Source of the DNA: Batkoa obscura
Taxonomy: Eukaryota
DNA length: 64,000 bases
Direction of reading: 5' to 3'
Assembly (NCBI GenBank): GCA_030770535.1
Contig: JASVEC010000028.1
Coordinates: 310,001 to 374,000 of the forward strand
Positions 6,653 to 63,256 of this stretch are shown one piece after another. Positions within the stretch are counted from its first letter, which is position 1; the number at the start of each line of letters is the position of its first letter. The position numbers and the translations under genes were made by a program. The notes under the pieces are model-generated. The model was not told the DNA's origin, searched no databases, and was given only the letters and a program-made list of their open reading frames with translations.

Positions 6653-6797
6653 TATTTAAATAAATATGAGTAGGCTAATTTCTTAACGGAAGTTTATATA
6701 ATATACACTATAATAGTAAAACATCTTGCTTAGCGAAGGCTATTTCAGTAAAATTCCCTCTTTATGTACTTATTTTTTATAATTTTATTATACATAT

Positions 6798-33845: not shown

Positions 33846-34305
33846 TGTGAAATATGGCTTTACCAGCTCTCGGATTAATTATAAGATAATAATCATTTAA
33901 CTTGTTTACAAAGCTAGTGGTAATCTTGTAATCAATTTAACCGTAAATCATGTGGTATAATCAATACAGAGTTCCTTGTTTTGATTTGCTGTGAGAATTT
34001 CTAGCTTCACATTGCAAAGAATATAAAAGAGACTCTTCAACATACTAACTCTAGGCTTTTTTAACTGAATTACTCCCTAATATCTTACCATTAATAAAGC
34101 CACTAAGTCTTTCTGACAATATCTTACGTAGATTTTACAATAGTATCTTCTATTCTATTTGTTTTACATAGTTCGTAACTTATTACGTATTATTCTTATT
34201 TATTTAAGTCTATCTTAGTTATATAAACTAAGACCGTTCGACTTAAGGCAAGCTAATCAACCAAGAACTGCTTTTAACTCCTACCACTGAGTACCAACTT
34301 TCACA
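33846..34305 (+). mobile_element. Solo LTR (TGTGAAA...TTTCACA family)
   Basis: TG...CA ends with a 7-bp inverted terminus, TATAAAA and AATAAA inside; flanks CCTG/CTTG; similar to the copies at 35034, 36230 and 45387. Confidence 0.8.
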
Positions 34306-34573
34306 CTTGTTAGCCTTTTACTTTTTATATTTATCTTTTTATAATATACTTTTAGAAATAAGGAAGTTGGATGTATTTAGATTTTTGAAATTTTAAAAAA
34401 TTCAATAAAAAAATAAAAAATTCAAACATTTATTAATTATTATTTATATATCATTTTAATTTAATTTAATTTACAAAATTATTTAAAAATTTCTATAACT
34501 TAATAACTTTTTAATTACTCAAAAAAGTTATATAAAGTTTAATAGAATAATAATTAATATCAAACTACAATGT

Positions 34574-34670
34574 GAGGGTGTTTTTTTTGGCTCCATCACT
34601 TTTTCTATCTTTTAAGCACTATTTGAGTAGAAAGACTATTAGTAAAATTCTTAAACAAAAATACATCCCC
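34574..34670 (-). mobile_element. ~100-bp MITE
   Basis: Reverse-complement copy ending ACATCCCC|ATAT. Confidence 0.9.
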
Positions 34671-34726
34671 ATATATAAATTTTAATATAAACATAAAACA
34701 TAATAATATTTAAATAATTAAAATAT

Positions 34727-34821
34727 AGAAATACGTTTTTTTGTTTAAGGATTTTATTAATAACTTTCTATTTAAATAATGTTTAAAAAATAAAAGTAAT
34801 GAAACCAAAAAAAACATACTC
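34727..34821 (+). mobile_element. Decayed ~100-bp MITE
   Basis: Same layout with many G>A/C>T changes (TTGTTTAAGGATTTTATTAA...GTAATGAAACCAAAAAAAACATACTC). Confidence 0.7.
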
Positions 34822-35033
34822 ATAGTAATTTTAAAAATAGTGATTTTTATATTTATTTAAATAAATTAATAATAAATAGTTTAATTTAAAAATGAAAATA
34901 AAAAGTTTAAATTATAAAATATCAATAATAAAACTAAGCTTATTATTAATATAAATAAAAAATATAATTAATGAAAAAACATTTTAATTTATTTAATTGT
35001 TTTATAAAATATAAATAATATCATATTAAAAGA

Positions 35034-35579
35034 TGTGAAATATTGCTTCATCAGCTCTATAGTTGATTATAAGATAATAATCACCTAACTTGTTTATAAA
35101 ATTAATTGTAGCCTTGTACTCAATTTGACCGTGATTCATGTGATACAATCAATCCAAAGTTCCTTATTTAGATTTGGTGTGAGAATTTCTACCACCTAAT
35201 CATGAAGAACTTATCGTCCACGTTTTAATGTCCATACTTGGCAACTATAATAAGGAACAGCTGTTATCATGTTCCTTATATATAGCCCACCCAGTTGGAG
35301 TATAAAAGAGATCTTTCGACATGATAACCCGAGGCTTTTTAATTGAATTACTCCCTGATATCATACTTTTAATAAAGCCGCTAAGTCTTATAGTATTTTA
35401 CGTAAATTCTACAGTAGTATCTTATATTCTATTTGTTTTACATAGTTCGTAACTTCTTACATATCATTCTTATTAACTTAAATCTATCTTAGTTACATAA
35501 ACTAAGACCTTCGGACTTACGGCCAGTTAATTAAGTTACAATTGCTTTTAACTCCAACCACTGAGTACCAACATTCACA
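35034..35579 (+). mobile_element. Solo LTR, longest copy (546 bp)
   Basis: TGTGAAA...ATTCACA flanked by AAGA/AAGA; contains GGAGTATAAAAG and AATAAA. Confidence 0.85.
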
Positions 35580-35771
35580 AAGATTTATTAACAAAATTTT
35601 TAAATTAGCAAATGAAACTAAAAGTTGTAATTATTTTATGAATTGTATATTTAAAAAAATTTATTTAAAAGAGGTTGTTATAAATAGTAATAATAAAACC
35701 AACAAATTTATTAAGATTTTTATTAATAAAGTATTAAAAAACTAATTAATTATAATAAGAGTAATATATAA

Positions 35772-35865
35772 GGGGGTGTCTTTTGGCTTCATTTTTTCCA
35801 TCTTTTAAGCGCCATTTGAGTGGAAAAATTGGTAGTAAAATTCTTAAACATAAAAATACATCTCC
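35772..35865 (-). mobile_element. ~100-bp MITE
   Basis: GGGGGTGTCTTTTGGCTTC...AAATACATCTCC, reverse-complement copy. Confidence 0.88.
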
Positions 35866-36229
35866 ATAAGTATAATAAATTAAAATTTAAACCAAGCTTT
35901 TAAATAAACTTGTATATAATATATAAAATAATAATAAATTTCAAATAATATAAGTAAATGAATTTAATATTAAATCCTAAATACTTAAAATAATCAATAA
36001 AAATTATAATATTTAAGTTTAAATTCATTATTGTTTTTTTATTTAAGATTTTATTTTATTAAAATTAAGTTTTAAAAAATAAGCTAAATAAGTTAAATAA
36101 ACTGTTAATATTAAATTCAGTTTTAATTTAATTTTTTAAATATAAGCTAAATTAATTTCATTAAAGCTACTAATTTTAATTTATGTAAAAACATTATAAT
36201 TAATAGATTATTTATTACTGATTTTAAGC

Positions 36230-36693
36230 TGTGAAATATTGGTTTATTAGCTCTCGGATTGATTATAACACAACAATCACTTGAGTTGCTGTGTTCCCAA
36301 GTTCAAACACAATCAAGTCAGAGTCCCTTATTTTGATTTACTGCGAGAATTTCTAACTTCATATTGCAAAGAATAATATCCTCTCGTTTTGATATCCATA
36401 CTTGTTGGAGTATAAAAGAGGTTTTTCAACATGATAAATCGATGCTTTTTAACTGAATTATTCCTTGATATCTTACCATTAATAAAGCCACTAAGTCTTT
36501 CTGACAATATCTTACGTAGATTTTACAGTAGTATCTTCTATTCTATTTGTTTTACATAGTTCGTAATTTATTACGTATTATTCTTATTTATTTAAGTCTA
36601 TCTTAGTTATATAAACTAAGACCGTTCGACTTAAGGCAAGCTAATCAACCAAGAACTGCTTTTAACTCCTACCACTGAGTACCAGCTTTCACA
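36230..36693 (+). mobile_element. Solo LTR
   Basis: TGTGAAA...TTTCACA flanked by a perfect TAAGC/TAAGC duplication. Confidence 0.88.
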
Positions 36694-37012: not shown

Positions 37013-37779
37013 ATATCAATAAAAGTATAAACATAGACAAAGTTGTATTTTTAATAAAATCAGTTTTGAAATATTTAATACCAGTAACTGGTAAATAGTT
37101 GGTCAAAAGTTATAGCTTGACATTTTTAGTAGATTTGTTTTTTATTCAGTCTGCAGTCATATTATCAGTATAGTAATTTTTTCAGTTAAAAACAAAGCTA
37201 TAAACAATATAATAAGTGATAATTTATAAATAAGTTAGTTTAAAGGCTCGGTTTAATTTTGTCTGATATAGATTTTTAGTAAAAATTGCGAATTAAGCAC
37301 AAGGTGGTAGAAATTAGTTGCTTTTTTAGTTAAGTTTAAAATTACTCATATAGGAATGTTTTGTTCAATGTTTATTTAGTATTTTTTTCAAAACTTACGC
37401 TATATAGAAAATGGGCAAAAAAGTGAAATAGGGAATTTTATCACTAATTTTAATTGAGCTTTTAAATTTACCCAAATAAAAAGATAAGCTTATTTATACT
37501 TTTTAAAAATCTATTTATACCTTAAAATGAACAAGGTTGAAAGAGATAAACTAATTTTAGAATGCGGGTAATTAACTGGCAGTCAAGTGATCAAGGCTAT
37601 AGGGATAGTTACAAAACAAATATACAAAAAATAGAAGATATAGCTATCGTTGATAAAATGCAGTCATTGACCAACTTTAAAAAGATTTAAATAAGAAAAC
37701 AAGAAATCATTTTTTAAATTTAAAAAAATCAACTCTCGACTTCAAAGTTTAAAAGTAAATAGCAGGGATATATCAAAAT

Positions 37780-38397
37780 ATGATTCAAACAAATCCCATC
37801 GAGTTATCTATAACTAATAATAATAATGAACTATGGTTAGGAGACGCTAATATAGCAATAAATCATTTGCAAGAATTTCATTTAGAGGTACATTACACTT
37901 TAAAGCGTAATCTTAATCAAGTTTGTTATAAAGTAATGATGTATGGTGATATTCACCTAAAAAAAGAATTAAAAGCAGTTGTCATACGCACATACATTTT
38001 TCGAATAATTTTAACGCTACCTTTAATTTCAGGAGTGCTATTTGGATTTAGCTATATATTTCTGGATCAAAAATTATATCAATATTACTCCCTAGTTATC
38101 ATTTTGGGCCTCTGCATCTTTATTGGTACTCAAGTATATGTAAATTTATCAAAGTTGATTATATCCTTAAATTAATTAAAATTCTAGCTTTTAGATCGAC
38201 ATTTAAGATCAATACGTGATACTCAAACTTTTTTAAGGGTAAATAAGCGTTTAATTCCACGTCTAGAAGCTAATGAAAGGGCAAGTTGTGAATTGGAATT
38301 TGAAAGGATTATGCATCTACCTGAATCCGAAAGAGCGGCTTACATGTCAAAACCACCTACTTATGGTCAAATTGGTAACTCGCCACCTGCTTATTAA
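37780..38397 (+). CDS. Two-TM protein with C-terminal PPxY motifs, family member 1 (intron 38140-38187)
   Basis: Shared block QVCYKVMMYGD..LKKELK.V.IRT; two hydrophobic helices; exon 2 ends PPTY...PPAY*. Confidence 0.8.
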
Positions 38398-39168
38398 CTC
38401 ATCAACTTATAACTTATTTTGTTATTTAAGTTTTTTGTTTTCTGTTATCTTTTTTAACAAATAAGAAACAATAGTTTGACTTAAGAGAGTTTATTATGCG
38501 AACTGCTAATGTATAAAAACAAGTTCACTAAAAACAAGTTATTTAATTGTAACAGATAGCATTATTTTTAAGTTTAAAGTTAGTATAGGATATTCTAATA
38601 GGTTGAATACAATCAAATAAACCTAGACAGCGATCCTTTACAAAAATCCCAACTTCAAAGGCTAAGTACGACTATAGCAACATAAAAAATATATTTAATC
38701 TTTCCTTTAGTATCGTTAATACCCTATAAAAATTATTGTTTTATGTATTAGACTTACTTTTATAAGAAACTATAGATCATAAACCCTACAATTACAATTA
38801 TTTTCTACTACAACAGCTATTGCCTTTTATAGCCAATATTAAATTTAATAAATTAGTTACTTTTACAAGAACATTTTGTATTGTGTACCTTAAAATTTCA
38901 CTAAAACCAAATAGCTAGGTACTCTTTTTAGGACTGTCCACAGCTAACTGGAGGCAAAATGATTATTATTAACATGTTATTTAGCAAAATGGAAAAAAAT
39001 TAGATAAATAGAAGCATTGTTTTTAAAAGGGTAGATTTAAAAAAATCATTTTTATTGCATTGATTTCAAAAGTTTAAATAGAGAAAAAAACAATGGTTTG
39101 TTTTAAATTATTAGAAAAAAAAACAAATATTTAAAGTTTAGAAATAATCAGCTATCTTAACTTAGCTT

Positions 39169-39834
39169 ATGAACTCATGGAGCACCGTTGAATTGTCTGC
39201 AATGAGATATGATGGCCAACCGCCAGAATCTGCTGATCCGTTACAAGGGTTCTATTTGGAATCGGAATACACATTAAAGCATAATATTGATCAAGCTTGT
39301 TATAAAGTGATGATGTATGGTGATTTGAGTTTAAAAAAAGAATTAAAAAGAGTGATAATACGCACCTTTTCTTTTCGAGTGTTTTTGGTCTTACCTTTAC
39401 TATTGGGTGTAATTTTTGGGATTTTATTTATGTTCATAGGTGGGAAGCACTATCTTTATTACCTATTGCTTATCTTTTTGCTCTTTGTTCTCGGTTTCAG
39501 TATTCAGCTTTATGTAAGTGTTTTTCTATTTTCTATACTTATAAATTAATGGAAGTTTTAGTTTTTGATTCATTACTTAAGATCAGTTCGTAGTAGACAA
39601 AGCTATGTAAAATTAAATAAGCATATGGTCACTCGTTTTGAGACACCTAGAAGGGTAATAGATCACTTTGTAGGTGAATGGGTAGGCCCTCAGGCTGAAA
39701 CAGAAAGAGTTACGTATACTTTACCTTCACCTCCACCAATATATAATGGGCTTGATAATTTGCCACCTTCTTATGAATCTGCCGATTTATCACCTACTTA
39801 TGAATCTGTTATTAATAATTTAGATCTACATTAA
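39169..39834 (+). CDS. Two-TM PPxY family member 2 (intron 39514-39561)
   Basis: Same conserved block and intron position; tail PPIY, PPSY, SPTY. Confidence 0.82.
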
Positions 39835-40477
39835 AAAACATTGTGTTTTAATTGTCTGTCGTTTTTTCTGAAAATAATCAATGACAGTTTGCTCTAAAAG
39901 CATTTAATATAAGCTATTAGCGAATATAAGCACAATAAGATAACATTGACTCTAGTGAGAGGTTTGAATATAAATAGTAGTATTGATTTTTCAATAAACT
40001 AAATCCTTTAATAGATAGGTTCCACTATAGTATTATAATAATTTTTACACTGATATTTAAGAAAAGCAACTTTTTATTTAATTTCAACAACATCATTGTT
40101 TTTACAGTAGTAATTTGAATATCAAGCATATATCCTTTTACGTTATGATGAAATTCTTTTCAATACATCAACTATTTATTTTTATAGATGGAATTTAGTT
40201 TAACAAAAAAGAGTATTTTTTACAATGTATATTTTAAAATTTTAATAAAATTAAATAGTAGACGTTCTCCTTAGAAACATCTATAGCAAACTAGCGGTAG
40301 AATCATTCTTTGTTAGCACGCCATTATATAAAATGGAAGAAAAAAATTGATAAATAGAAGGATTGTAAAAGTTTATTTTTTCCGATTAGTTTTAATTAAT
40401 TTAAATAGTAAGATAATAACTTGTTTTATTCAAATTACTAGTACAAAAAAAAAATTAATTAATAATCATCTCAGACT

Positions 40478-41073
40478 ATGAGCCCATTGAATGCTATTGA
40501 ATTATCTTCAATCAATAATAATGGAACACAATCAGAATATACTAATACAACTACTGATTCATTAAAAGGGTTTGAATTAAAATTAAAATATATTTTCAGA
40601 TATAATCTTGATGATGTATATTGTAAAGTAATGATGCATGATGATAAGAATCTAAAAAAAGCACTAGAAGGATCTGTAACTACTATCTATTGCTTTCGAA
40701 TGTTTTTAATTTTATCTATATTATTTGTAGCAGTATTCGAAGCTATGATGATACTTGGAGCTGGAATATGTTTCTTTTACTGTCTATTAGCCGATTTTTT
40801 ATTGTCTACCTTGGCTTTGATATTTAACTTTATGTACGTTTTTTTATTCTTTTAGTGTCAGCTAACGAAGACTTTAGTTTTTAATTCATTATTTTTAATT
40901 CATTTGTATTTTAGAAAGTTATGTAAAATTAAATAAGCTTATAATTATCGCTTTGGGTTGCCTATAAGTGAACCAATAAGTCCCTAGCCTGAAATTGAGG
41001 CAATAATGTACACCAACTCCACCAAGTTACAATCAAGTTGTTAATTTTCCACCTGGTTATGAACTCATTGATT
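40478..41073 (+). pseudogene. Two-TM PPxY family member 3, disrupted exon 2
   Basis: Exon 1 open; after the intron (40834-40877) it reads FLIHYF*; PPSY and PPGY codons survive downstream beyond the stop. Confidence 0.7.
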
Positions 41074-44455: not shown

Positions 44456-44808
44456 GCTTGATTATTTATTAAAATTTACAGTGTAAATTAAAATCAAATC
44501 TATTATTATAAAATCATTTTTTTAGTTATTATTATTATTATTATTATAAAAATAACTTTTATTATATACAAAGATAATGTAAATATAGCATTTACTATTG
44601 TATTAATCCAACAATTTAATCATAATTACCCCAAAGAAAATTTATGAGATCTTTCTAATTAGATTTATTTGTATTGCTATCTAAATACTTTGAATTACAT
44701 TATAAAAAATACTCGGTTTATTTCACATTAACTGTCTTATTTTTCTATCATTTTGGCTAATAAATTTGATGATTAATATGAGACAGACCAAGTATCTAAC
44801 CTTTATAT

Positions 44809-45386
44809 GGGGATGTCCGAATTGGTTTCATTTTTTTCAATTTTTCAATTTTTCAATTTTAAAACTGCTTAAAATTTTATAAAAATAAACTTTTTATTAA
44901 AAAGCAAGTATTTGACGGTTTTAAATTATTTTATTATGATTTATATCAAATTTAATAAAAATTCCCAGATTAGCAAGGCTTTTACTAATATAACCTATAT
45001 GGGGTGTTTTTTTGGCTTCATTACTTTTTCCATTTTTAAGCGCTATTTGAGTGGAAAATTTGTTAGTAAAATTCTTAAACACAAAAATACATCCCCATAT
45101 ATTGATATTAATCAAAGCTGTAATATATAAATAAATACATATTTTTATAAAAATTTATTAATAAATACTTATTATTGACTCTTTTATAACCAACACTGCA
45201 GATTTACTATTAAATAAATAAATAATTTTAATGTTATAATTATATTATTAGTATATTACTAAGTTAACAAATAATTACATAGGGGAGAGTAATTAGCTTT
45301 AAAACTATAATTATTTTTATATAACAAAAGCAATATAATAATAGTTTTTACTTATTATTATGATTACTTGCTTTTTGATTAATTAT
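44809..45386 (+). repeat. Left TIR (contains a MITE; truncated at the LTR junction)
   Basis: Collinear with the reverse complement of the right TIR, e.g. 59/70 identities for 45164-45233 versus 49081-49150. Confidence 0.85.
45001..45096 (-). mobile_element. ~100-bp MITE inserted in the left TIR
   Basis: ATAT|GGGGTGTT...ACATCCCC|ATAT; absent at the homologous site of the right TIR (49201-49230). Confidence 0.93.
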
Positions 45387-45585
45387 TGTGAAATATCGGT
45401 TCATTAGCTCTAGGATTGATTATAATATGATAATCAATTCAGAGTTCCTTATATAGATTTGCTGTGAGAATTGCTACCACCTGATCATGAAGAACTTATT
45501 GTCCACGTTTTAATGTCCATACTTGGTAACTACAATAAGGGATAACTGTTATAATGTTCCTTATATATGGCCAGCCAGTTGGAAC

Positions 45586-45638
45586 ATAAAAGAGATTCTT
45601 CAACATACTAACTCGAGGCTTTTTAATTGGATTACTCT
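45586..45638 (+). repeat. 53-bp perfect direct repeat, copy 1
   Basis: ATAAAAGAGATTCTTCAACATACTAACTCGAGGCTTTTTAATTGGATTACTCT, identical to 47346-47398. Confidence 0.97.
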
Positions 45639-45646
45639 TACTTATA

Positions 45647-46948
45647 ATGGTATATATAAAAAAACAGCAAACTCTTTCTCAATTCAATTGCTTGGATTAT
45701 GTTTTGAGCTTCTTAAAAGATAACGACTTGTCAATAATGATAGATCATCCTTATCAGTTTGATTTCCCAGACAACTCAGTGGCTATTAATATAAATAGAA
45801 ACCACATATCTATTGGAGGCTACTGGCAAACAGAAGAGTCTTACTTGATAATGAAAAGATCAAGACCTGTCTGGAATGAGTCTGGAACAATATTTGATTT
45901 CTTGGCGGATCCATGTGATAGATTTGAGAGAGAAGACGTTCTTGTTTGGGATGAAGTATTAATTGAGAAGAAAGAGAAATCTTTTGACATAATGGAACTA
46001 GACAAGAAGATCGGATGGGATACTTTCTGTCACTTGGCTAAAATCCCCCTATTCAAAAGCAATTTAAGGAGAATGAACGATCTGGAGTTAGGAATGATTG
46101 GTAAGGAATCCGGTGTTGTTAAATTCGTTTCAGATGATGGCTTTCAAGATGGCTTTGTGACCAAGGATGTCTTCAGTAGCTTGTGCTTCAGATATGGTTC
46201 ATTGTACCCCGGTGATAGTGATGGTCATTACACTCCAGAGGTTATTAATTTGAATGGATCTCAAATCCCAGTTTATAGATATGATGAGTGGTTGTATTTA
46301 AGAGAGAGTCCTGGTAGAGTAAAATTATTTTTATTTTTAAACTCAGGACTCTCCAATCTCTTAGGCTGCAAATGTTGTTATGACGATTCTTACAAAAAGA
46401 AAGTTAAGTTTAGAATTGAAGATAAATTTCAAGACCAAGGTTATGTAGATGACTTGGATACATTTTGTGGGATAGCTTCAATGCTGTATACAGGACAATA
46501 CTGCAACAAACTCAGAAGAAAATATAAGATAGCAAAAAAGAAGTGTCTAAGACTGCTCAAATATCTAAGTGTTAATTTGAATATGGATAACAAGTTTGCA
46601 AAAGATATAGCGAATGTTAAAATAGATGAAAATTACGAATTGACCAAAAAACTACTGAATTTTGATAAAATAGTAAAAAACTTCGTAAAAACAGTTTCTA
46701 AATTCAAGGACGTGGAAAGAGAAACAAAAGATTCTAAAAATCTTTCATATGTTGAAGCTTTTATCCGCACAATAATGGAAGATATACTTAATGAGTCTAG
46801 AGATATTGATATCGAAACTGTAGCTTACCGGGTTAAAACTCTCTGTTACAAAAACAAAAAAAATGAGTCTTCAATCAAGACAATAATCAACGGGTTAACC
46901 GACCACGAAAGATACTTGCTATATAATTATAATAGGAAAAAGAGATGA
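45647..46948 (+). CDS. Cargo ORF1: 433-aa orphan protein, possibly of viral or prokaryotic origin
   Basis: Intact intronless ORF, richer in GC than its flanks (24/60 at 46081-46140), AGA-dominated Arg usage; no motif recognised with confidence. Confidence 0.7.
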   Translation: MVYIKKQQTLSQFNCLDYVLSFLKDNDLSIMIDHPYQFDFPDNSVAININRNHISIGGYWQTEESYLIMKRSRPVWNESGTIFDFLADPCDRFEREDVLVWDEVLIEKKEKSFDIMELDKKIGWDTFCHLAKIPLFKSNLRRMNDLELGMIGKESGVVKFVSDDGFQDGFVTKDVFSSLCFRYGSLYPGDSDGHYTPEVINLNGSQIPVYRYDEWLYLRESPGRVKLFLFLNSGLSNLLGCKCCYDDSYKKKVKFRIEDKFQDQGYVDDLDTFCGIASMLYTGQYCNKLRRKYKIAKKKCLRLLKYLSVNLNMDNKFAKDIANVKIDENYELTKKLLNFDKIVKNFVKTVSKFKDVERETKDSKNLSYVEAFIRTIMEDILNESRDIDIETVAYRVKTLCYKNKKNESSIKTIINGLTDHERYLLYNYNRKKR

Positions 46949-47271
46949 TGACTAAAACAGGCGCTGATAGAGAAAAACTCCTTTTAACTCCACCCTATTA
47001 TGCTGTTGTATTTTCGTCAAAGCGTACCGAGGGTGATAACGGTTATGATGCTATGAGTGCAAAGATGGATGAGCTGGCAGAAAAACAAAATGATTATTTG
47101 GGTACCGAAAGTGCAAGGGATAAATCTGGTTTTGGCATTACAATATCCTACTGGGAGAACCTTGATTGTATAAAGAAATGGAAAGAAAATGCGGCTCATC
47201 CAGTGGCACAAAAATTGGGTAAAAAACAATGGTATACTTCTTATAAAGTACGTATTACAAAAGTAGAGTAA
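46945..47271 (+). CDS. Cargo ORF2: ABM (antibiotic biosynthesis monooxygenase) family protein, YqjZ-like
   Basis: PPYYAVVFSS, GY...M.ELA..Q..YLG.ESAR...GFGITISYW, W.....H..AQ..G...WY.SY.VR..KVE follow the bacterial YqjZ-type ABM pattern; TAA at 47269 may be premature (frame continues YYEMND* to 47292). Confidence 0.88.
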   Translation: MMTKTGADREKLLLTPPYYAVVFSSKRTEGDNGYDAMSAKMDELAEKQNDYLGTESARDKSGFGITISYWENLDCIKKWKENAAHPVAQKLGKKQWYTSYKVRITKVE

Positions 47272-47345
47272 TATTATGAGATGAATGATTGAAATGGTAC
47301 TCTTATCTTGGTTTAATATGTCTTGCTATGCGTACTAAATTGAGT

Positions 47346-47398
47346 ATAAAAGAGATTCTTCAACATACTAACTCGAGGCTTTTTAATTGGATTACTCT
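47346..47398 (+). repeat. 53-bp perfect direct repeat, copy 2
   Basis: Identical to 45586-45638. Confidence 0.97.
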
Positions 47399-47590
47399 CT
47401 GATAACGTATCATTAATAAAGTCACTAAGTCTTTCTGACAACATCTTATATAGATTTTACGCTTATTGCATACTATTCTTATTAAGTTAAGTCTATCTTA
47501 GTTACATAAACTAAGACCGTTCAACTCAAGGCAAGTTAATTAAGCAAGAGTAGCTTTTAACTCCGACCACTGAGTATCAACTTTCACACT

Positions 47591-48873
47591 ACTATTAAAA
47601 ATACAAAAAAAATTAAAGATGAGCAAATCGAGATTATTGTACAATATTTACTTGATAATTCAACTATTTCATCAAGATTTAGTAAAAAAAATAATGATAA
47701 ATATTCGTCAGAGAATATATATATATTTAATAAAAGTAGAAGAATGATATATAGTAAATATTTTAATGATTTAAAAGATAAAGCAATAGCTAGGTCAACA
47801 TTTTTTAAATATATACCAGATAATTTTAAAAACCCAGCAAGAAAAACAAATTTATGTAATATATGTACCCAGTATACAGTCAGAAAAAAGTTATTTGAAA
47901 ATAAAATAAATATAGCGACAGAAAATAAAGCAGAGATAGAGGAATCTTTTAATAAAGAAAAAAGGTTATATAAATTACATGAATTTTGTGTTGATACTCA
48001 AAAAAACATAATGAAGCTATTAAAAAATTAAATAATAGAAGTTGTATAATAATTTTAGACTTTAAACAAAATATGGAAACAGGAACAAGACCAGGTCCAA
48101 TAAATTTAGATTATTATAATAAACAAGCTATATCAGTATTAGGGTTTGGCGTTTTATATTTAAAAAATGTTAAAACAATAGGCAAAGTTTATTTTGATTA
48201 TTTATCTGAAATATTAAATCATGATTCAGCATATGCAGGAGATTGTTTAGTTGATTTAATATCTAAAGAGCCTTTATTTAAAAAGTTTACAAAAATTAAT
48301 ATATGAGCAGATACAGGATACCATTTTAAATCTCAAGAGTTTTTACACTATATATTTGAAGAAATTTATAAAATAAATAGTAGTTTAAATATTGATCTTA
48401 ATTTTTTTGCTGAGCATCATGGAAAAAGTATAGTTGACGGACATTTTGGAAATCTTTCACAGTGGAAAAATAATCTTGAAGCATTAGGTAAAATAGAAGA
48501 TATTGATCAATTAATTTCAAAATTTGAGATTTTTGTTTGTGAACATAATGGAGTTAATAACTCAATTGTTAATAATGGAAAACAAATATAACTTTTAAAA
48601 AGTATGAAAGAAACAAAAATATAATAAAAATAATAAAAATAATAAAAATACAAGGTATTAAAAAGTATTTACATTTTATTAAACGTGGTAATAAATTACA
48701 CTGTTATCCAGTATCTGATAAATCAAAAAAAAAGCGATATAATTACAATTAAAGTTATGGAGTCTATAGAGGATAGAAAAATTAAAAGGTCAACCCCAGC
48801 TTATCTTACAAAAATAACTGAAAATTTAAAAGTTTCAATATTTAGTAAGCAAGTAAGTAGCTTATTAGGATAA
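47591..48873 (+). pseudogene. Sola2-like DDD transposase, 5'-truncated, with frameshifts and a stop
   Basis: ARSTFFKYIP, CNIC, ILDFKQN, NHDS, I*ADTGYHFKS (TGA for TGG at 48304), NFFAEHHGKSIVDGHFG; frameshift in the A-run near 48001. Confidence 0.8.
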
Positions 48874-48923
48874 AAATCAATTATTAAATGTTGATATTAC
48901 TTAAATTAATAATAGCTAAGTTA

Positions 48924-49436
48924 ATAAATAGTCAAAGAGCAAGTAGTTGTAATAATAAGTAAAAATTATTATTATACTGCTTGTATTACATAGGGATGGT
49001 TGATTATAGTTTTGGGGCTAAACACTCCCTCCTATTCAGCTATTTATTAACTTAGCGATATATTGATAATGTAATTATAACATTAAAATAATTTGTTCAT
49101 TTGATAGCAAATCTGCAATGTTGGCTGTAAAACAGTTAATAATAAATATTTCTTAATAAAGCTATATAAAAGTATATATTTATTTACATATTACAACTTT
49201 GACTAATATCACTATACAAGCTATATTAGTAAAATCTTTGCTAATCCAGAAATTTATATTAAATTTAATAAAAATTCCGCTAATTGACAATATAAATTAT
49301 AACAAAATAATTTAAAACTGTATCGGGTACTTTTGGCTTTTAATAAAGAATTTATCTTTATAAATTTTAAGCAAAATTTTTAAAATATAAATATTTAAAA
49401 ATTGGATAAAAAAATGAAACCAATTTGGACACCCCC
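48924..49436 (-). repeat. Right TIR
   Basis: Reverse complement of the left TIR. Confidence 0.85.
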
Positions 49437-49747
49437 ATATAGTAAATTTCAATAAAGAAATGATTCAGTAATATGTTTATGAAATTAATTATTTTTAATA
49501 TTGTAATATAATTTATTCTTATATGAAATAAGGAGTATTTATAGTAACCAAGGCAACCTATCAAAATTGATCCTTTGGATAGTGTAAGTCATATTATTAT
49601 TGATGAATTTTTTTATACTAATATTGAAGTTAGTAATAAAATTAGTAAGAATTTGGAATAATTTAGCTTAGTTAAAAAATAATAAGAGATATCTACTTTA
49701 CATTTTTACACTTTTCAAAATGTTTGGCAGGTTAAAATAAAATATAT

Positions 49748-49846
49748 AGTGATGTATTTTTGTGTTTAAGAATTTTACCGACAATTATTCTACTCAAATA
49801 GTGCTTGAAAAATGGAAAAAGCGATGAAATCAAAAAAAACACCCCC
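49748..49846 (+). mobile_element. ~100-bp MITE, first of an inverted pair
   Basis: GATGTATTTTTGTGTTTAAGAATTTTAC...AAACACCCCC|ATAT. Confidence 0.88.
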
Positions 49847-49850
49847 ATAT

Positions 49851-49948
49851 GAGGATGTTTTTTTTGGTTTCATTATTTTTTCCATTTTTTAAGCGCTATT
49901 TAAGTGGAAAAGCTATTAGTAAAATCCTTAAACAAAAAAATACATCCC
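49851..49948 (-). mobile_element. ~100-bp MITE, second of an inverted pair
   Basis: ATAT|GAGGATGTTTTTTTTGGTTTC...ATACATCCC|ATAT. Confidence 0.9.
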
Positions 49949-50020
49949 ATATCATATTTAATTCCGCTTTATTTTAATACAAATAAAACAAAATCAATTG
50001 ATTTCAAATATACAATAAAC

Positions 50021-50674
50021 ATGTTATTAATAATCATAACTTACTTATTGTTATTCAATTCATCAATCAATGGTGATAACGTTCCCTTTAATATAAAAGT
50101 AGGTGGTATGATGTACCCATGTCGAGTAGGTGATCGAGGTCTTTGGCCTGGTTTATGGAGGCCATTAGCCGGTTGTTTGGGTTGTAGAAAAAGTAGTTCA
50201 AGCTGTATTACAGGTTTTAATGGAACTTGGAATGATAGAATCGATTTTAGTGAATCTTGGGGTAGTAGTTTTCAATTATCATTAGTAGAAGAACTTAATA
50301 AAAATATTGGTCAAGAAATGGGGGTTAATTTCTATGGTGAAAAGGTTACACAGATAACAAGTAGTTGTCGTACAGAATCTGGTGGAGATGTTCGAATTTG
50401 GATAAAACAAAAGATGATTTGGTTGGATGTTCAATGTTTTTATTATGTTACTCCATTTCGTTTAAGAAAACTACCCTGGATGAGAATTGATGCTCCAACT
50501 AATGATAATTTAGAAATTGGTTGTGGATTCAATGAAGATAGAGATGGTAAAGATAGTACAAAATGTTGGATAAATAAAGGAATTAGTGGTAGATCAATAG
50601 ATGATCAAAATTCAGATGGTATTATTGTTGAAAAACCATTAACTAGCAGTTATAATGTAATAAGGACTGTATAA
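50021..50674 (+). CDS. Secreted Cys-rich hypothetical protein, 217 aa, intronless
   Basis: Signal peptide MLLIIITYLLLFNSSING; 8 Cys and many Trp; no domain recognised. Confidence 0.7.
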   Translation: MLLIIITYLLLFNSSINGDNVPFNIKVGGMMYPCRVGDRGLWPGLWRPLAGCLGCRKSSSSCITGFNGTWNDRIDFSESWGSSFQLSLVEELNKNIGQEMGVNFYGEKVTQITSSCRTESGGDVRIWIKQKMIWLDVQCFYYVTPFRLRKLPWMRIDAPTNDNLEIGCGFNEDRDGKDSTKCWINKGISGRSIDDQNSDGIIVEKPLTSSYNVIRTV

Positions 50675-60581: not shown

Positions 60582-61202
60582 CTAATTAAGAGATTGATAA
60601 GCAGGTAGTGAGTCAACAGCTTGATTATAAATTGGTGGGACATAAATCACTCTCTCTGTTTGAGGTTGAGGGTCTGCCTACTCATTTGTTGTTTGGTCTC
60701 TTGCTCCTATAAATGTTTAAAAACAAGTGACTGTACGGTTACTTAATTTTCTATAACTTTGTTTACTATAAACGGATTTTAAATAATGAGCTAGAAACTA
60801 AATTTTTATTAATCAAAGATAGAAGTTAGAAAACAAAAGGCTCACATAAAGTTGAATACCAAAACCAAGTATAAATAATGCAGTGGTAGCTAATAGGGAA
60901 GAAAGTAAATGCATCCTGCTTCCAAATATTATCATAACTCTGAATACTGCTCCAAATAGTATAGGTAAAACTAAAAACATTCGAAAGCAATAAGTGCTTA
61001 TTATTGCTCCTTTTAATTCTTTTTTTAGATTCATATCATCATACACCATTACTTTATAGCATACCTCGTCAAGATTACATTTGAATTTGTACTCTGGTCC
61101 TAATTCTAATCTTTTTAATGGATGAGTAGTTGTATCAATAGGTTCTGACAGTGAACTATTATGGCTGATTGTAGATAACCCAACAACACTCTCTAGGCTC
61201 AT
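60582..61202 (-). pseudogene. Two-TM PPxY family member 4, two in-frame stops in exon 2
   Basis: Exon 1 open; exon 2 reads FLAHYLKSVYSKQSY...TCF*TF...NE*ADPQPQTERVIYVPPIY...LPAY. Confidence 0.72.
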
Positions 61203-61782
61203 AGTCTGAGTATAGTTATTGGCTGATCTTTTTTATTAATTCAAATGAAACTAGTTATTGTTTTCTATATTTAAATTTTTTGAATTCAACCCAATAAATT
61301 TGAGTTTTATAATAATCCTTCTATTTATCTGTTTATTTTTCTATTTTACTTAATGATATATTGATAAAGAATCATTTCGTCGCCACCTGGGGGTTCAACT
61401 AGCTGTTATGCACATAGAATAACCAATCAGGAGCAAAACAAAAGAAAATATAAGAACTATGATAATGCTATAGTTGAACCTATCTAATTAAAAGGTTATT
61501 TTATTTGAAAATTTAAAATATAAAGTTAAACTTTGCTTGCAACTAAGATCGTTTTAGCTCTTTAAACTATGGTACAAACATTAAATTATTTTAATTAATT
61601 TTACATTAAAACAATACCACTAATTATATTCAAAACTTTCACTAAAGTGAATGTTATTTTATTCTGTTTACATACGCTAATGATTTAAATGATAACCCAT
61701 TTCAGGGCAAACTACCATTAATTACTTTTAGAAAAAAGTATCCATGAACAAAAACACCAACAAAGCAAAACACAATTTCATT

Positions 61783-62414
61783 TTAAATATTAAACGAGTT
61801 GTTATTAGTGGATTCGTAGGCAGGTGGTGCTTTAGCAGCTTGACTATAAAGTGGTGGGGGTAGTGTATAAGTCACCCTCTCACTTTCATCTTGATAATCT
61901 ACCAACTGGCCCCTTTCTCTTCTATCTATCTCAATACGAGTAATTGTACTTTTATTTAATTTCATATAACTTTGTTTGCTATGAGCAGATGTTAAATAAT
62001 GCATTAAATACTAAAAGTTCTATTAGCTCAAAACAAAATGTAAAAAATTAAACTTACATAAACTTGAAAACTCAGAGTAGAGATAAAGAATATAAAGATA
62101 GCTAATAGATAATAAATAAAGTACTCTTTACCTAAAAATAGATATAAAGCTCCAAAAACTACTCCAGATATTAAAGGTAAGATTATAAATATTCGCAAGC
62201 AATAGGTACGTAGTATCACCCTTTTTAATTCCTTTTTTTGATTCGTATCGCCATGCATTATTATGCTATAACAAGCTTGATCAAGAGTAAATTTTAAAGT
62301 GTAATGAGATTTTAGTTTAAACCCGTGTGATAGACCATTAGTTGTACTAATAGATTCTGATTGTGGCATATCATTATTAATTATAGATAATTGAACAGTG
62401 TTTTGTAGACTCAT
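61783..62414 (-). CDS. Two-TM PPxY family member 5 (intron 62057-62011)
   Basis: Same conserved block and intron position; tail PPLY, PPAY. Confidence 0.82.
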
Positions 62415-63256
62415 AGGCTGAGTATAGTTATTGATTAATTTAAAATTTTAAAATATAAGTGAACTTCTTTTAGTAAATCAATTAAAATAATTTTTTTCTC
62501 TGTATTTAAACTGACTGAACGAACCAAATAAATAGCTTTTTTGAAATTAATCTTCTATTTATGATTTTTCTTCTATTTTACTTAATGGCATATTAATGAA
62601 GAAGTATTTTGCCGCCAATTAACCACAAACAGCTCTAAAAAGGGTTCTTATAAGGTTTATGGAAAGTTTATGAAACCATTAATAAAAATAAAAAAAAAAG
62701 TAGTTAAAAGTGTGAAGTCATAAAAGAAAGTATAACTTTTATCTATTTCTTTTCGGTGTAATAAGTTTACAAACACTTTCTTTTTAACTTTAAAAGTAAT
62801 TTTTGTTGATAAATTAATAGACATAAAGTACTCTCACAACTTAAACAAATAATAACCCCTGTGACTTTTAAAGAATACTAAAACCTACGTAGTGATAGGT
62901 CTGAATTACACCTTTATACTAGCATTTTCATTTTTTTCATTTTGTTTAATAAATTTTAAAGTTACTAATATTATGTCTACTTTTGAAGTTTTAAAAAGTA
63001 TTAATTTAATTTGAAATTGTACATGTTAAACGCTTCAAAAAAGTTGTTATAAAATCATATCTTTTATTGATGTAAATCTTCAAGTATGTATTTATATCAC
63101 AAGGCCTTGTTTTAATATACTAAACCCTGATTGCTAGAAAAATTATATTATAAGATATTTTAAAGCTATAATTTAATGCAATTATTATATAAGAACTTTA
63201 TTATTTTTATGTTCAGTTTTCTTATTCAAGCCAATTAAAAGCTAGAAAAAGTATAT

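What the first reader, a model, noticed from the sequence alone, without database searches (positions are those of the whole stretch)
46925..47292. Bacterial-type YqjZ-like ABM gene with operon-style coupling inside a fungal transposon
Seen: an intronless ABM ORF whose ATG overlaps the ORF1 stop (ATGA at 46945-46948), with AGGA 7 nt upstream, as in prokaryotic translational coupling. The frame continues past TAA to YYEMND*, suggesting a recent nonsense change. Known: the PPYYAVIF...GITVSYW...WY.SY.VR.AKV type of ABM is typical of bacteria such as Bacillus subtilis YqjZ. Inference: horizontal acquisition. Alternatively, MMTKTGADREKLLL is a frameshifted continuation of ORF1 and the ABM part was joined at ACTCCACCCTAT by a second template switch, making the cargo a chimera of two donors.
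Basis: partly seen in the sequence, partly recalled or inferred. Interest (0 to 1): 0.72.

Follow-up and report, generated by a model that had tools for sequence, protein, structure and literature searches.

The report
Broken gene copy, false operon signal
A jumping-gene remnant in a fungus holds a broken copy of a small enzyme-family gene that related fungal genomes carry intact elsewhere, and its bacterial-looking operon signals are by-products of the joint; the intact gene likely came from bacteria long ago, and the copy was likely made by reverse transcription.

Summary
The letters are as described, but the operon reading fails. ORF2 (46945-47271) is a YqjZ-like ABM, 93% identical to an intact 119-aa Neoconidiobolus thromboides protein and at most 69% to any other hit. 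Four DNA-type runs hold the same ABM DNA in a resident setting, without ORF1 or the repeat around it. The captured piece is 46935-47341, unbroken across 46987. The joint cuts the parent's start codon: ATG 46945 is the parent's fifth codon, ORF1's stop is ABM sequence read out of frame, and three letters of AGGA are ABM coding sequence. ORF1 plus ABM lie between 53-nt perfect repeats inside a TG..CA solo-LTR-like repeat that has three empty copies in the window. The copy is decaying (6 of 7 changed codons are replacements or a stop), while resident copies look conserved. Best reading: a dead two-donor retrocopy, likely made by reverse-transcriptase template switching, of a gene likely acquired from bacteria earlier. 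ORF1 remains an orphan, possibly viral.

The parts
44804..45387 (.). Left arm of the outer long imperfect terminal inverted repeat; cut where the LTR-like repeat begins
   Evidence: 45098-45387 vs 48923-49216 (81%), 44804-45000 vs 49214-49441 (73%)
45387..45585 (+). Left part of the solo-LTR-like repeat (starts TGTGAAA; U3-like by inference; TATA-like word at 45562)
45586..45638 (+). First copy of the 53-nt perfect direct repeat (R-like by inference); one copy only in empty elements
45639..46934 (+). Donor 1: orphan coding DNA (ORF1 codons 1-429), lacking a stop codon of its own
   Evidence: no relative; joint
45647..46948 (+). ORF1 as read in the window, 433 aa; its last four codons and stop are ABM DNA read out of frame
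46934..46937 (+). AGGA, the supposed Shine-Dalgarno word: straddles the joint; absent from the cassette copy in run X1 (46935 differs)
46935..47341 (+). Donor 2: piece of the resident ABM gene, from within its start codon to about 50 nt behind its stop; closest to resident copy B
   Evidence: tables 7 and 8
46945..47271 (+). ORF2, 108 aa, YqjZ-like ABM pseudogene; begins at the parent's fifth codon, ends at a nonsense TAA (47269-47271)
47272..47292 (+). Lost C-terminal codons (YYEMND) and the parent's stop position
47342..47398 (+). Second copy of the repeat (53 nt perfect from 47346; LTR-family sequence resumes at 47342)
47399..47588 (+). Right part of the solo-LTR-like repeat (ends TTTCACA; U5-like by inference); no target duplication with 45387
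47589..48620 (+). Broken transposase-like remnant of the outer element (frameshifts and stops; no Pfam family)
   Evidence: Sola-like label recalled, not tested
48923..49441 (.). Right arm of the outer terminal inverted repeat
33846..34305 (+). Empty copy of the LTR-like repeat (flanks match at 3 of 4)
35034..35579 (+). Empty copy of the LTR-like repeat, 4-nt target duplication; closest to the left half of the cargo-bearing copy (88%)
36230..36693 (+). Empty copy of the LTR-like repeat, 5-nt target duplication

Best explanation
ORF2 is a broken duplicate of a resident fungal ABM gene, joined at 46934/46935 to an unrelated orphan ORF inside a solo-LTR-like repeat, likely by reverse-transcriptase template switching, and its parent was likely acquired from bacteria earlier. 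Shown: the resident gene, the two joints of the ABM piece, the chimeric origin of AGGA and ATGA, the nonsense codon, the 53-nt duplication and the empty repeat copies. Inferred: during minus-strand synthesis the enzyme left the element RNA at about 47342, copied the ABM mRNA back to its start codon, switched to a second RNA (ORF1), then returned to the 3' end of element RNA at about 45638, so that the R-like 53-57 nt is present twice (U3-R-cargo-R-U5). Predicted function: none; ORF2 would be an untranslated or barely translated downstream frame. The resident protein would be a small dimeric ferredoxin-barrel enzyme of the YqjZ type, likely a cofactor-free oxygenase or small-molecule binder (substrate untested). 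Odds by step: secondary duplicate with chance coupling 0.9; RNA template switching 0.65; bacterial origin of the parent 0.8.
For: P0001, 119 aa, 93%, on a 234,939-nt contig. Resident context in 4 of 4 DNA-type runs and 3 of 3 RNA-type runs: 7655- and 7661-nt contigs match 46937-47341 with 0 gaps and leave the window at both ends, at the same depth as an LTR-bearing contig of the same run (444 vs 479; 42.6 vs 46.8). A second resident copy (B) in X1 and X9 leaves the window at 46935, inside its start codon; in X1 it has 0 differences over 46935-46974. Frames across the joint. Empty repeat copies carry the 53-mer once, have TG..CA ends and, in 2 of 3, a 4-5-nt target duplication. No poly(A) at the 3' joint; LTR-bearing contigs align 15-19 nt into the ABM 3' flank (6 differences in 39-43 nt), i.e. 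microsimilarity. Both donors are in one sense; a TATA-like word lies about 20 nt before the repeat. Decay: 1 synonymous of 7 changed codons in the window copy; resident copies 11 synonymous of 14 listed sites (p 6e-5 vs 26% neutral); ORF1 11 synonymous of 36 codons against X1, whose copy has a stop at codon 286 and two frameshifts. Bacterial origin: every named relative other than P0001 is bacterial, Atlas clusters 99-100% Bacteria, tree places the fungal pair (support 99) among bacterial rows. Mechanism precedent: PMC5131818 passages.
Against: The window's own genome is not held, so a resident parent in this very strain is not shown. The parent has no intron over the captured piece, so RNA origin cannot be shown by intron loss. 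R boundaries are not mapped; the TATAAAA word conserved in all four copies lies at 47345, inside the right repeat, which fits a simple strong-stop jump poorly. No full element with PBS, PPT or pol was seen, and the cargo-bearing copy has no target duplication. In PMC5131818 cargo replaces internal ORFs, not LTR sequence. Fisher test of resident vs cassette changes weakens to p 0.07 when three N-terminal replacements are added. Only 120 of 315 hits were listed, most unnamed; the tree is a quick one on 109 columns and resolves no donor. Run kinds (DNA or RNA) are the tool's guesses. No contig of X1 bridges the ABM 3' end to the LTR.
Confidence: 0.7

Rival explanations
1. Same two-donor chimera, but made at DNA level: templated repair of a break in a solo LTR (or integration of a small DNA circle) copied the ABM gene and ORF1 DNA and duplicated 53-57 nt of the target.
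For: The parent is intronless, so nothing proves an RNA step. The duplication looks like a long target duplication. The conserved TATA-like word lies inside the right repeat. The cargo sits in the LTR and not in place of internal ORFs.
Against: The ABM piece runs from start codon to about 50 nt past the stop, within the span of a 620-nt RNA-type contig; both donors are in one sense; X1 shows only one ORF1 contig at single-copy depth, so no second resident DNA donor at 80% or more was laid.
Confidence: 0.2
2. ORF1 and ORF2 are a bacterial two-gene operon piece, with Shine-Dalgarno word and ATGA coupling, transferred directly into the transposon.
For: ATGA and AGGA are present at textbook spacing; ORF2 is 60-69% identical to bacterial proteins; neither ORF has introns.
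Against: Resident fungal copies match at the DNA level from 46935 and lack ORF1; best bacterial DNA matches are patchy, 65-79% over 55-176 nt; ORF1 matches 0 of 83 bacterial and metagenome ABM loci; ORF1's stop and three letters of AGGA are ABM coding DNA; X1's cassette copy lacks AGGA.
Confidence: 0.02
3. The resident ABM gene is an old eukaryotic gene, kept in this lineage and lost or missed in other fungi; no transfer at all.
For: The fungal pair has a long stem (0.45) and no supported bacterial sister; GC3s 0.24 is nearer the host (0.16) than the bacterial median (0.48); the protein searches are word-limited and 195 of 315 hits were not listed.
Against: Up to 69% identity to bacterial-type proteins; no other named eukaryote among 120 + 33 listed hits; Atlas clusters 99-100% Bacteria; no intron.
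Confidence: 0.1
4. The cassette is a live bicistronic unit driven by the LTR promoter, with ORF2 made by stop-restart translation at AUGA (a device recalled from fungal victoriviruses).
For: ORF1 is still open over 433 codons and the ATGA overlap exists; a TATA-like word lies upstream.
Against: ORF2 has a nonsense codon and replacements at conserved sites (G50, V54 region); ORF1 changes are neutral-like and X1's copy is broken three times.
Confidence: 0.05

Closest known systems
LTR-mediated chimeric retrocopies (Tan et al. 2016, PMC5131818; yeast Ty and maize Bs1 cases as cited there)
   Same: Partial host gene between LTR-element sequence, two donors joined, microsimilarity at one joint, no poly(A) tail.
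   Different: The cargo sits within the LTR between two copies of a 53-57-nt segment, rather than replacing internal ORFs; one donor is an orphan with no resident parent seen; intron loss cannot be tested.
Bacillus subtilis YqjZ (PDB 2GO8), ABM family PF03992; described as non-heme-binding with type-2 barrel packing in PMC4835899
   Same: P0001 matches at E 3.8e-29 over residues 19-114; family motifs kept.
   Different: Fungal copies have a private N-terminal extension; the window copy is truncated and scores under the Pfam cut-off.
Bacteria-derived xenologs of early-diverging fungi (Ciach et al. 2024, PMC11291939)
   Same: Short, intronless, metabolic gene, duplicated after transfer.
   Different: No ABM entry and no 'thromboides' in the two supplementary files searched.
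Magnaporthe oryzae Abm (passages in PMC5472320)
   Same: An ABM-domain gene in a fungal pathogen, proposed to come from bacteria.
   Different: Other phylum and host; no sequence comparison was made here; a role in infection for this gene is untested.

Membership tests
YqjZ-like ABM (PF03992) | Pfam ABM gathering score (23.1 bits) | tested here: inconclusive
   Resident P0001 23.4 bits, met; window ORF2 14.4 bits, not met
YqjZ-like ABM (PF03992) | Sequence match to YqjZ and conserved PPYYA.F / GIT.SYW / H..AQ..G...WY motifs | tested here: met
YqjZ-like ABM (PF03992) | Ferredoxin-like fold | tested here: met
   Atlas model of P0001, TM 0.84 to ABM clusters; both sides are predicted models
YqjZ-like ABM (PF03992) | Complete reading frame | tested here: not met
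   Window copy lacks codons 1-4 and ends at a nonsense codon; all 13 aligned relatives go on past it
YqjZ-like ABM (PF03992) | Dimer and enzyme activity | not testable with these tools
   needs biochemistry
Prokaryotic operon with translational coupling | Both genes come from one donor locus | tested here: not met
   Joint at 46934/46935; ORF1 in 0 of 83 ABM loci
Prokaryotic operon with translational coupling | Shine-Dalgarno word inherited from the donor and conserved | tested here: not met
   AGGA spans the joint, differs in X1; the 30 nt shown upstream of resident copies hold no such word
Prokaryotic operon with translational coupling | Upstream gene's own stop overlaps the downstream gene's own start | tested here: not met
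   Stop is ABM DNA out of frame; ATG is the parent's codon 5
LTR-mediated retrocopy | Flanked by LTR-element sequence on both sides | tested here: met
   (LTR status rests on ends and target duplications)
LTR-mediated retrocopy | Microsimilarity at joints | tested here: inconclusive
   Seen at the 3' joint; the two ORF1 joints cannot be judged without its donor
LTR-mediated retrocopy | No L1 hallmarks (poly(A), short target duplication) | tested here: inconclusive
   No poly(A), but a 53-57-nt duplication flanks the cargo
LTR-mediated retrocopy | Intron loss relative to the parent | not testable with these tools
   Parent DNA has 0 gaps over the piece: it has no intron to lose
LTR-mediated retrocopy | Cargo replaces internal ORFs of the element (pattern in PMC5131818) | tested here: not met
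   Cargo lies within the LTR-like repeat
Solo LTR | TG..CA ends with short inverted repeat | tested here: met
   4 of 4 copies
Solo LTR | 4-6-nt target duplication | tested here: inconclusive
   2 of 4 exact, 1 with a mismatch, none on the cargo-bearing copy
Solo LTR | Matches the ends of a full gag-pol element | not testable with these tools
   no genome held
Bacteria-to-fungus xenolog (resident gene) | Nearest relatives are bacterial | tested here: met
   limited to listed hits
Bacteria-to-fungus xenolog (resident gene) | Embedded in the fungal genome, not a contaminant | tested here: met
   234,939-nt named contig; 4 of 4 DNA-type runs, depth equal to LTR-bearing contigs in X10 and X12
Bacteria-to-fungus xenolog (resident gene) | Supported nesting in one bacterial clade | tested here: inconclusive
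   sister unresolved

The most novel reading that the evidence does not exclude
One aberrant first-strand transfer copied two foreign RNAs into the LTR itself (U3-R-cargo-R-U5): the mRNA of a bacteria-derived fungal gene and a gene of an RNA virus with no known relative, leaving a fossil of that virus and marking the element's R region exactly.
Probability: 0.25. Interest if true: 0.6.

Novelty: new member of a known kind. Interest (0 to 1): 0.32.

Why it matters
The headline claim, prokaryotic translational coupling kept in a fungal transposon, is an artefact of a joint, a useful warning for sequence-only reading. What remains is modest but real: an ABM gene likely taken from bacteria, duplicated and apparently conserved in an insect-infecting fungus, not found in the papers searched; and a natural fungal example of an LTR element capturing two RNAs, here within the LTR. 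If ORF1 proves viral, the cassette is a fossil of an unknown virus.

Tried and rejected
Own genome: not held. ORF1 donor: no hit in the word-indexed protein search (3155 candidates, 238-758 aa), 0 of 1.84 billion representatives, Atlas, Pfam above cut-off, NCBIfam, PHROGs, PDB (one chance hit, E 2.5), plasmids and phages, viral and metagenome contigs. Single-sequence fold of ORF1 failed (pLDDT 33), so no fold search was run. Expression: no RNA holder listed; the three RNA-type runs give no cover over ORF1, which is no evidence either way, since they may lack the cassette. P0001 in viral contigs: none. Longer or fused ABM forms: 33 of 153 candidates, none named as eukaryotic. Rfam over 44500-50000: 5 matches, all under the gathering score and all on the palindrome at 49798-49899. 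Joint at about 46987: rejected. The idea that X1's two frameshifts mark the older frame: rejected, the other frames hold 8 and 4 stops. Earlier scan findings: 3 look-ups, none. Paper searches gave listings only and nothing used; PMC7466969 passages did not bear on the gene. Tree: 6 of 167 rows dropped by a length filter; the careful search did not finish.

Full report
Observation. ORF1 runs 45647-46948 (433 aa) and ORF2 46945-47271 (108 aa); they overlap at ATGA; AGGA is at 46934-46937, 7 nt before the ATG; the ORF2 frame goes on past TAA to YYEMND and a stop at 47290-47292. The window is AT-rich eukaryotic DNA. The best relative of ORF2 is labelled Neoconidiobolus thromboides, so the host is likely that fungus or a close relative; this rests on one named protein, and no genome is held.

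What ORF2 is. Of 315 relatives at E<=0.001, 120 were listed. The first is P0001 (119 aa, 93%, full cover, on a 234,939-nt contig). The next is 69% over 86% of the query; all others that carry an organism name are bacteria. P0001 matches YqjZ (2GO8) at E 3.8e-29 and just passes the Pfam ABM cut-off (23.4 vs 23.1); ORF2 does not (14.4).

A resident parent exists. Twelve runs from 7 studies hold part of the stretch (kinds are guesses); 7 were laid. In all 4 DNA-type runs and all 3 RNA-type runs the ABM DNA lies in another setting: contigs match up to 47341 and then leave the window, and leave it again at 46935 or 46937. In X10 and X12 single contigs of 7655 and 7661 nt match 46937-47341 with 29 differences and 0 gaps, at the depth of an LTR-bearing contig of the same run (444 vs 479; 42.6 vs 46.8). 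X1 and X9 hold two resident copies. Copy A begins like P0001. Copy B leaves the window at 46935; in X1 it has 0 differences over 46935-46974 and 3 over 47244-47341 (against 11 for the other copy; the pairing of 5' and 3' contigs is inferred). B is therefore the likely parent. Its loose upstream letters end in AT, so window base 46935 is the G of its start codon and it begins M-E-K-E-M-M-T.

The coupling is made by the joint. It follows that (a) the joint is 46934/46935, not about 46987; (b) the parent's start codon was cut; (c) ATG 46945 is codon 5 of the parent; (d) ORF1 has no stop of its own and ends at the TGA that any Met-Met pair gives in the shifted frame; (e) AGGA is one A from ORF1 DNA (43% A there) plus three coding letters of the ABM gene. 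Rough chance, given a joint here: one frame in three times 0.4. The cassette copy in X1 differs at 46935 and so has no AGGA. ORF1 matches none of 83 bacterial and metagenome ABM loci, and bacterial DNA matches are patchy, 65-79% over 55-176 nt (best 15 rows).

The container. ORF1 plus ABM lie between two perfect 53-nt repeats, 45586-45638 and 47346-47398; family sequence resumes at 47342. Removing the cargo and one repeat leaves a roughly 450-550-nt repeat of which the window has three empty copies (33846, 35034, 36230). All four begin TGTGAAA and end with TTCACA; two empty copies have exact 4- and 5-nt target duplications, one has a mismatch, the cargo-bearing one has none. These are solo-LTR marks (established knowledge); a full element was not seen. 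The repeat is nested between the left arm and the broken transposase of a long-TIR element, with the segment between them lost (loose ends at 45387 and 47589).

Mechanism. Inferred: both donors are in the sense of the TATA-like words; the ABM piece spans start codon to about 50 nt past the stop and lies within a 620-nt RNA-type contig; there is no poly(A); LTR-bearing contigs align 15-19 nt into the ABM 3' flank. This fits template switching as described in PMC5131818 (passages read): partial mRNAs, several donors, microsimilarity, no L1 marks. The difference is that the cargo is within the LTR with a duplicated segment, as a faulty first-strand transfer would give (U3-R-cargo-R-U5; my inference). 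Against it: R is unmapped, a conserved TATAAAA lies inside the right repeat, and the parent has no intron to lose. DNA-level repair stays open (0.2).

Is it alive? Probably not. Against X1's resident sequence the window copy differs at 11 listed sites in 7 codons: 1 synonymous, 5 replacements, 1 nonsense; the synonymous site is shared with X9's minor copy. Resident copies differ among themselves at 14 listed sites, 11 synonymous (p 6e-5 against 26% expected; 9e-4 with three N-terminal replacements added; Fisher against the cassette p 0.016 or 0.069). Sites near contig ends are not listed by the tool. In the tree the window branch is 0.066 against 0.008 for P0001. ORF1 in X1 (one contig, depth 21.8, like single resident copies) has 44 substitutions, of which 38 were listed: 11 synonymous of 36 codons (neutral 26%, p 0.57), a stop at codon 286 and two frameshifts.

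Origin of the parent. A quick tree of 161 rows (6 of 167 dropped by length; 109 columns) joins ORF2 and P0001 (99) on a long stem among bacterial rows with no supported sister. Atlas clusters are 99-100% Bacteria, which the tool warns is no proof of transfer. No eukaryote is named among 33 longer forms. GC3s is 0.24, between host (0.16 pooled, 0.09-0.31 over 10 ORFs) and bacterial relatives (median 0.48). An old transfer is likely (0.8); the donor is unknown. YqjZ-like proteins are called non-heme-binding in PMC4835899 (passages), so the 'heme-degrading HmoA' labels are not evidence of function. PMC11291939 (passages and both supplementary files searched) gives the general pattern of intronless xenologs and has no ABM or 'thromboides' entry. 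PMC5472320 (passages) gives a precedent of a likely bacteria-derived ABM in another fungus. Searches (listings) showed no paper on this gene; subscription journals are mostly not covered.

ORF1. It is real coding DNA by length (chance 8e-18), richer in GC3s than the pooled host (0.31; 2 of 10 host ORFs reach 0.30), begins 8 nt after the repeat, and has no relative in any search (see Tried and rejected). A virus gene is a guess from orphan status, composition and capture by a retroelement; no call supports it directly.

Verdict. Observation confirmed; operon and direct transfer not supported; two-donor chimera supported with a corrected joint. A dead secondary copy of a likely xenolog: new member of a known kind, interest 0.32.

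Noticed in passing
window 45639-46934: ORF1 is a 429-codon orphan with no relative among 1.84 billion representatives; single copy in one public run and broken there. Its donor is the main open question of this locus.
   Followed up: partly
window 47089-47122: 8 of the 11 listed differences between the window's ABM copy and X1's resident sequence fall within 34 nt (shuffle p 4e-5): a conversion patch from an unseen third copy, or an error-prone tract.
   Followed up: partly
window 44804-49441: Dead DNA transposon with about 600-nt imperfect terminal inverted repeats and a broken transposase (47589-48620) with W.D.G.HFK and HGK..DG motifs recalled as Sola-like; no Pfam family.
   Followed up: partly
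window 49736-49963 and copies near 6794, 27479, 33562, 34570, 35766, 36921, 41149, 41417, 63248, 63596: A palindromic MITE-like repeat family related to part of the outer element's left arm; it gives weak miRNA-precursor matches under the Rfam cut-off.
   Followed up: no
window 33846-36693: Three empty solo-LTR-like copies cluster within 2.9 kb, all in one direction, with different internal deletions.
   Followed up: partly
run X11, record 10: The resident ABM gene lies at the 3' end of a 6163-nt RNA-type contig of depth 788; overlapping transcripts, DNA carry-over or a longer unit were not told apart.
   Followed up: no
window 50021-50674: 217-aa ORF with a hydrophobic N-terminus and several cysteines, no Pfam or NCBIfam family; looks secreted.
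   Followed up: no
window 37759-38175, 39166-39549, 40466-40855, 60813-61232, 62028-62447: Five related ORFs of a small membrane-protein family (shared CY.VMM.GD..LKKELK motif).
   Followed up: no
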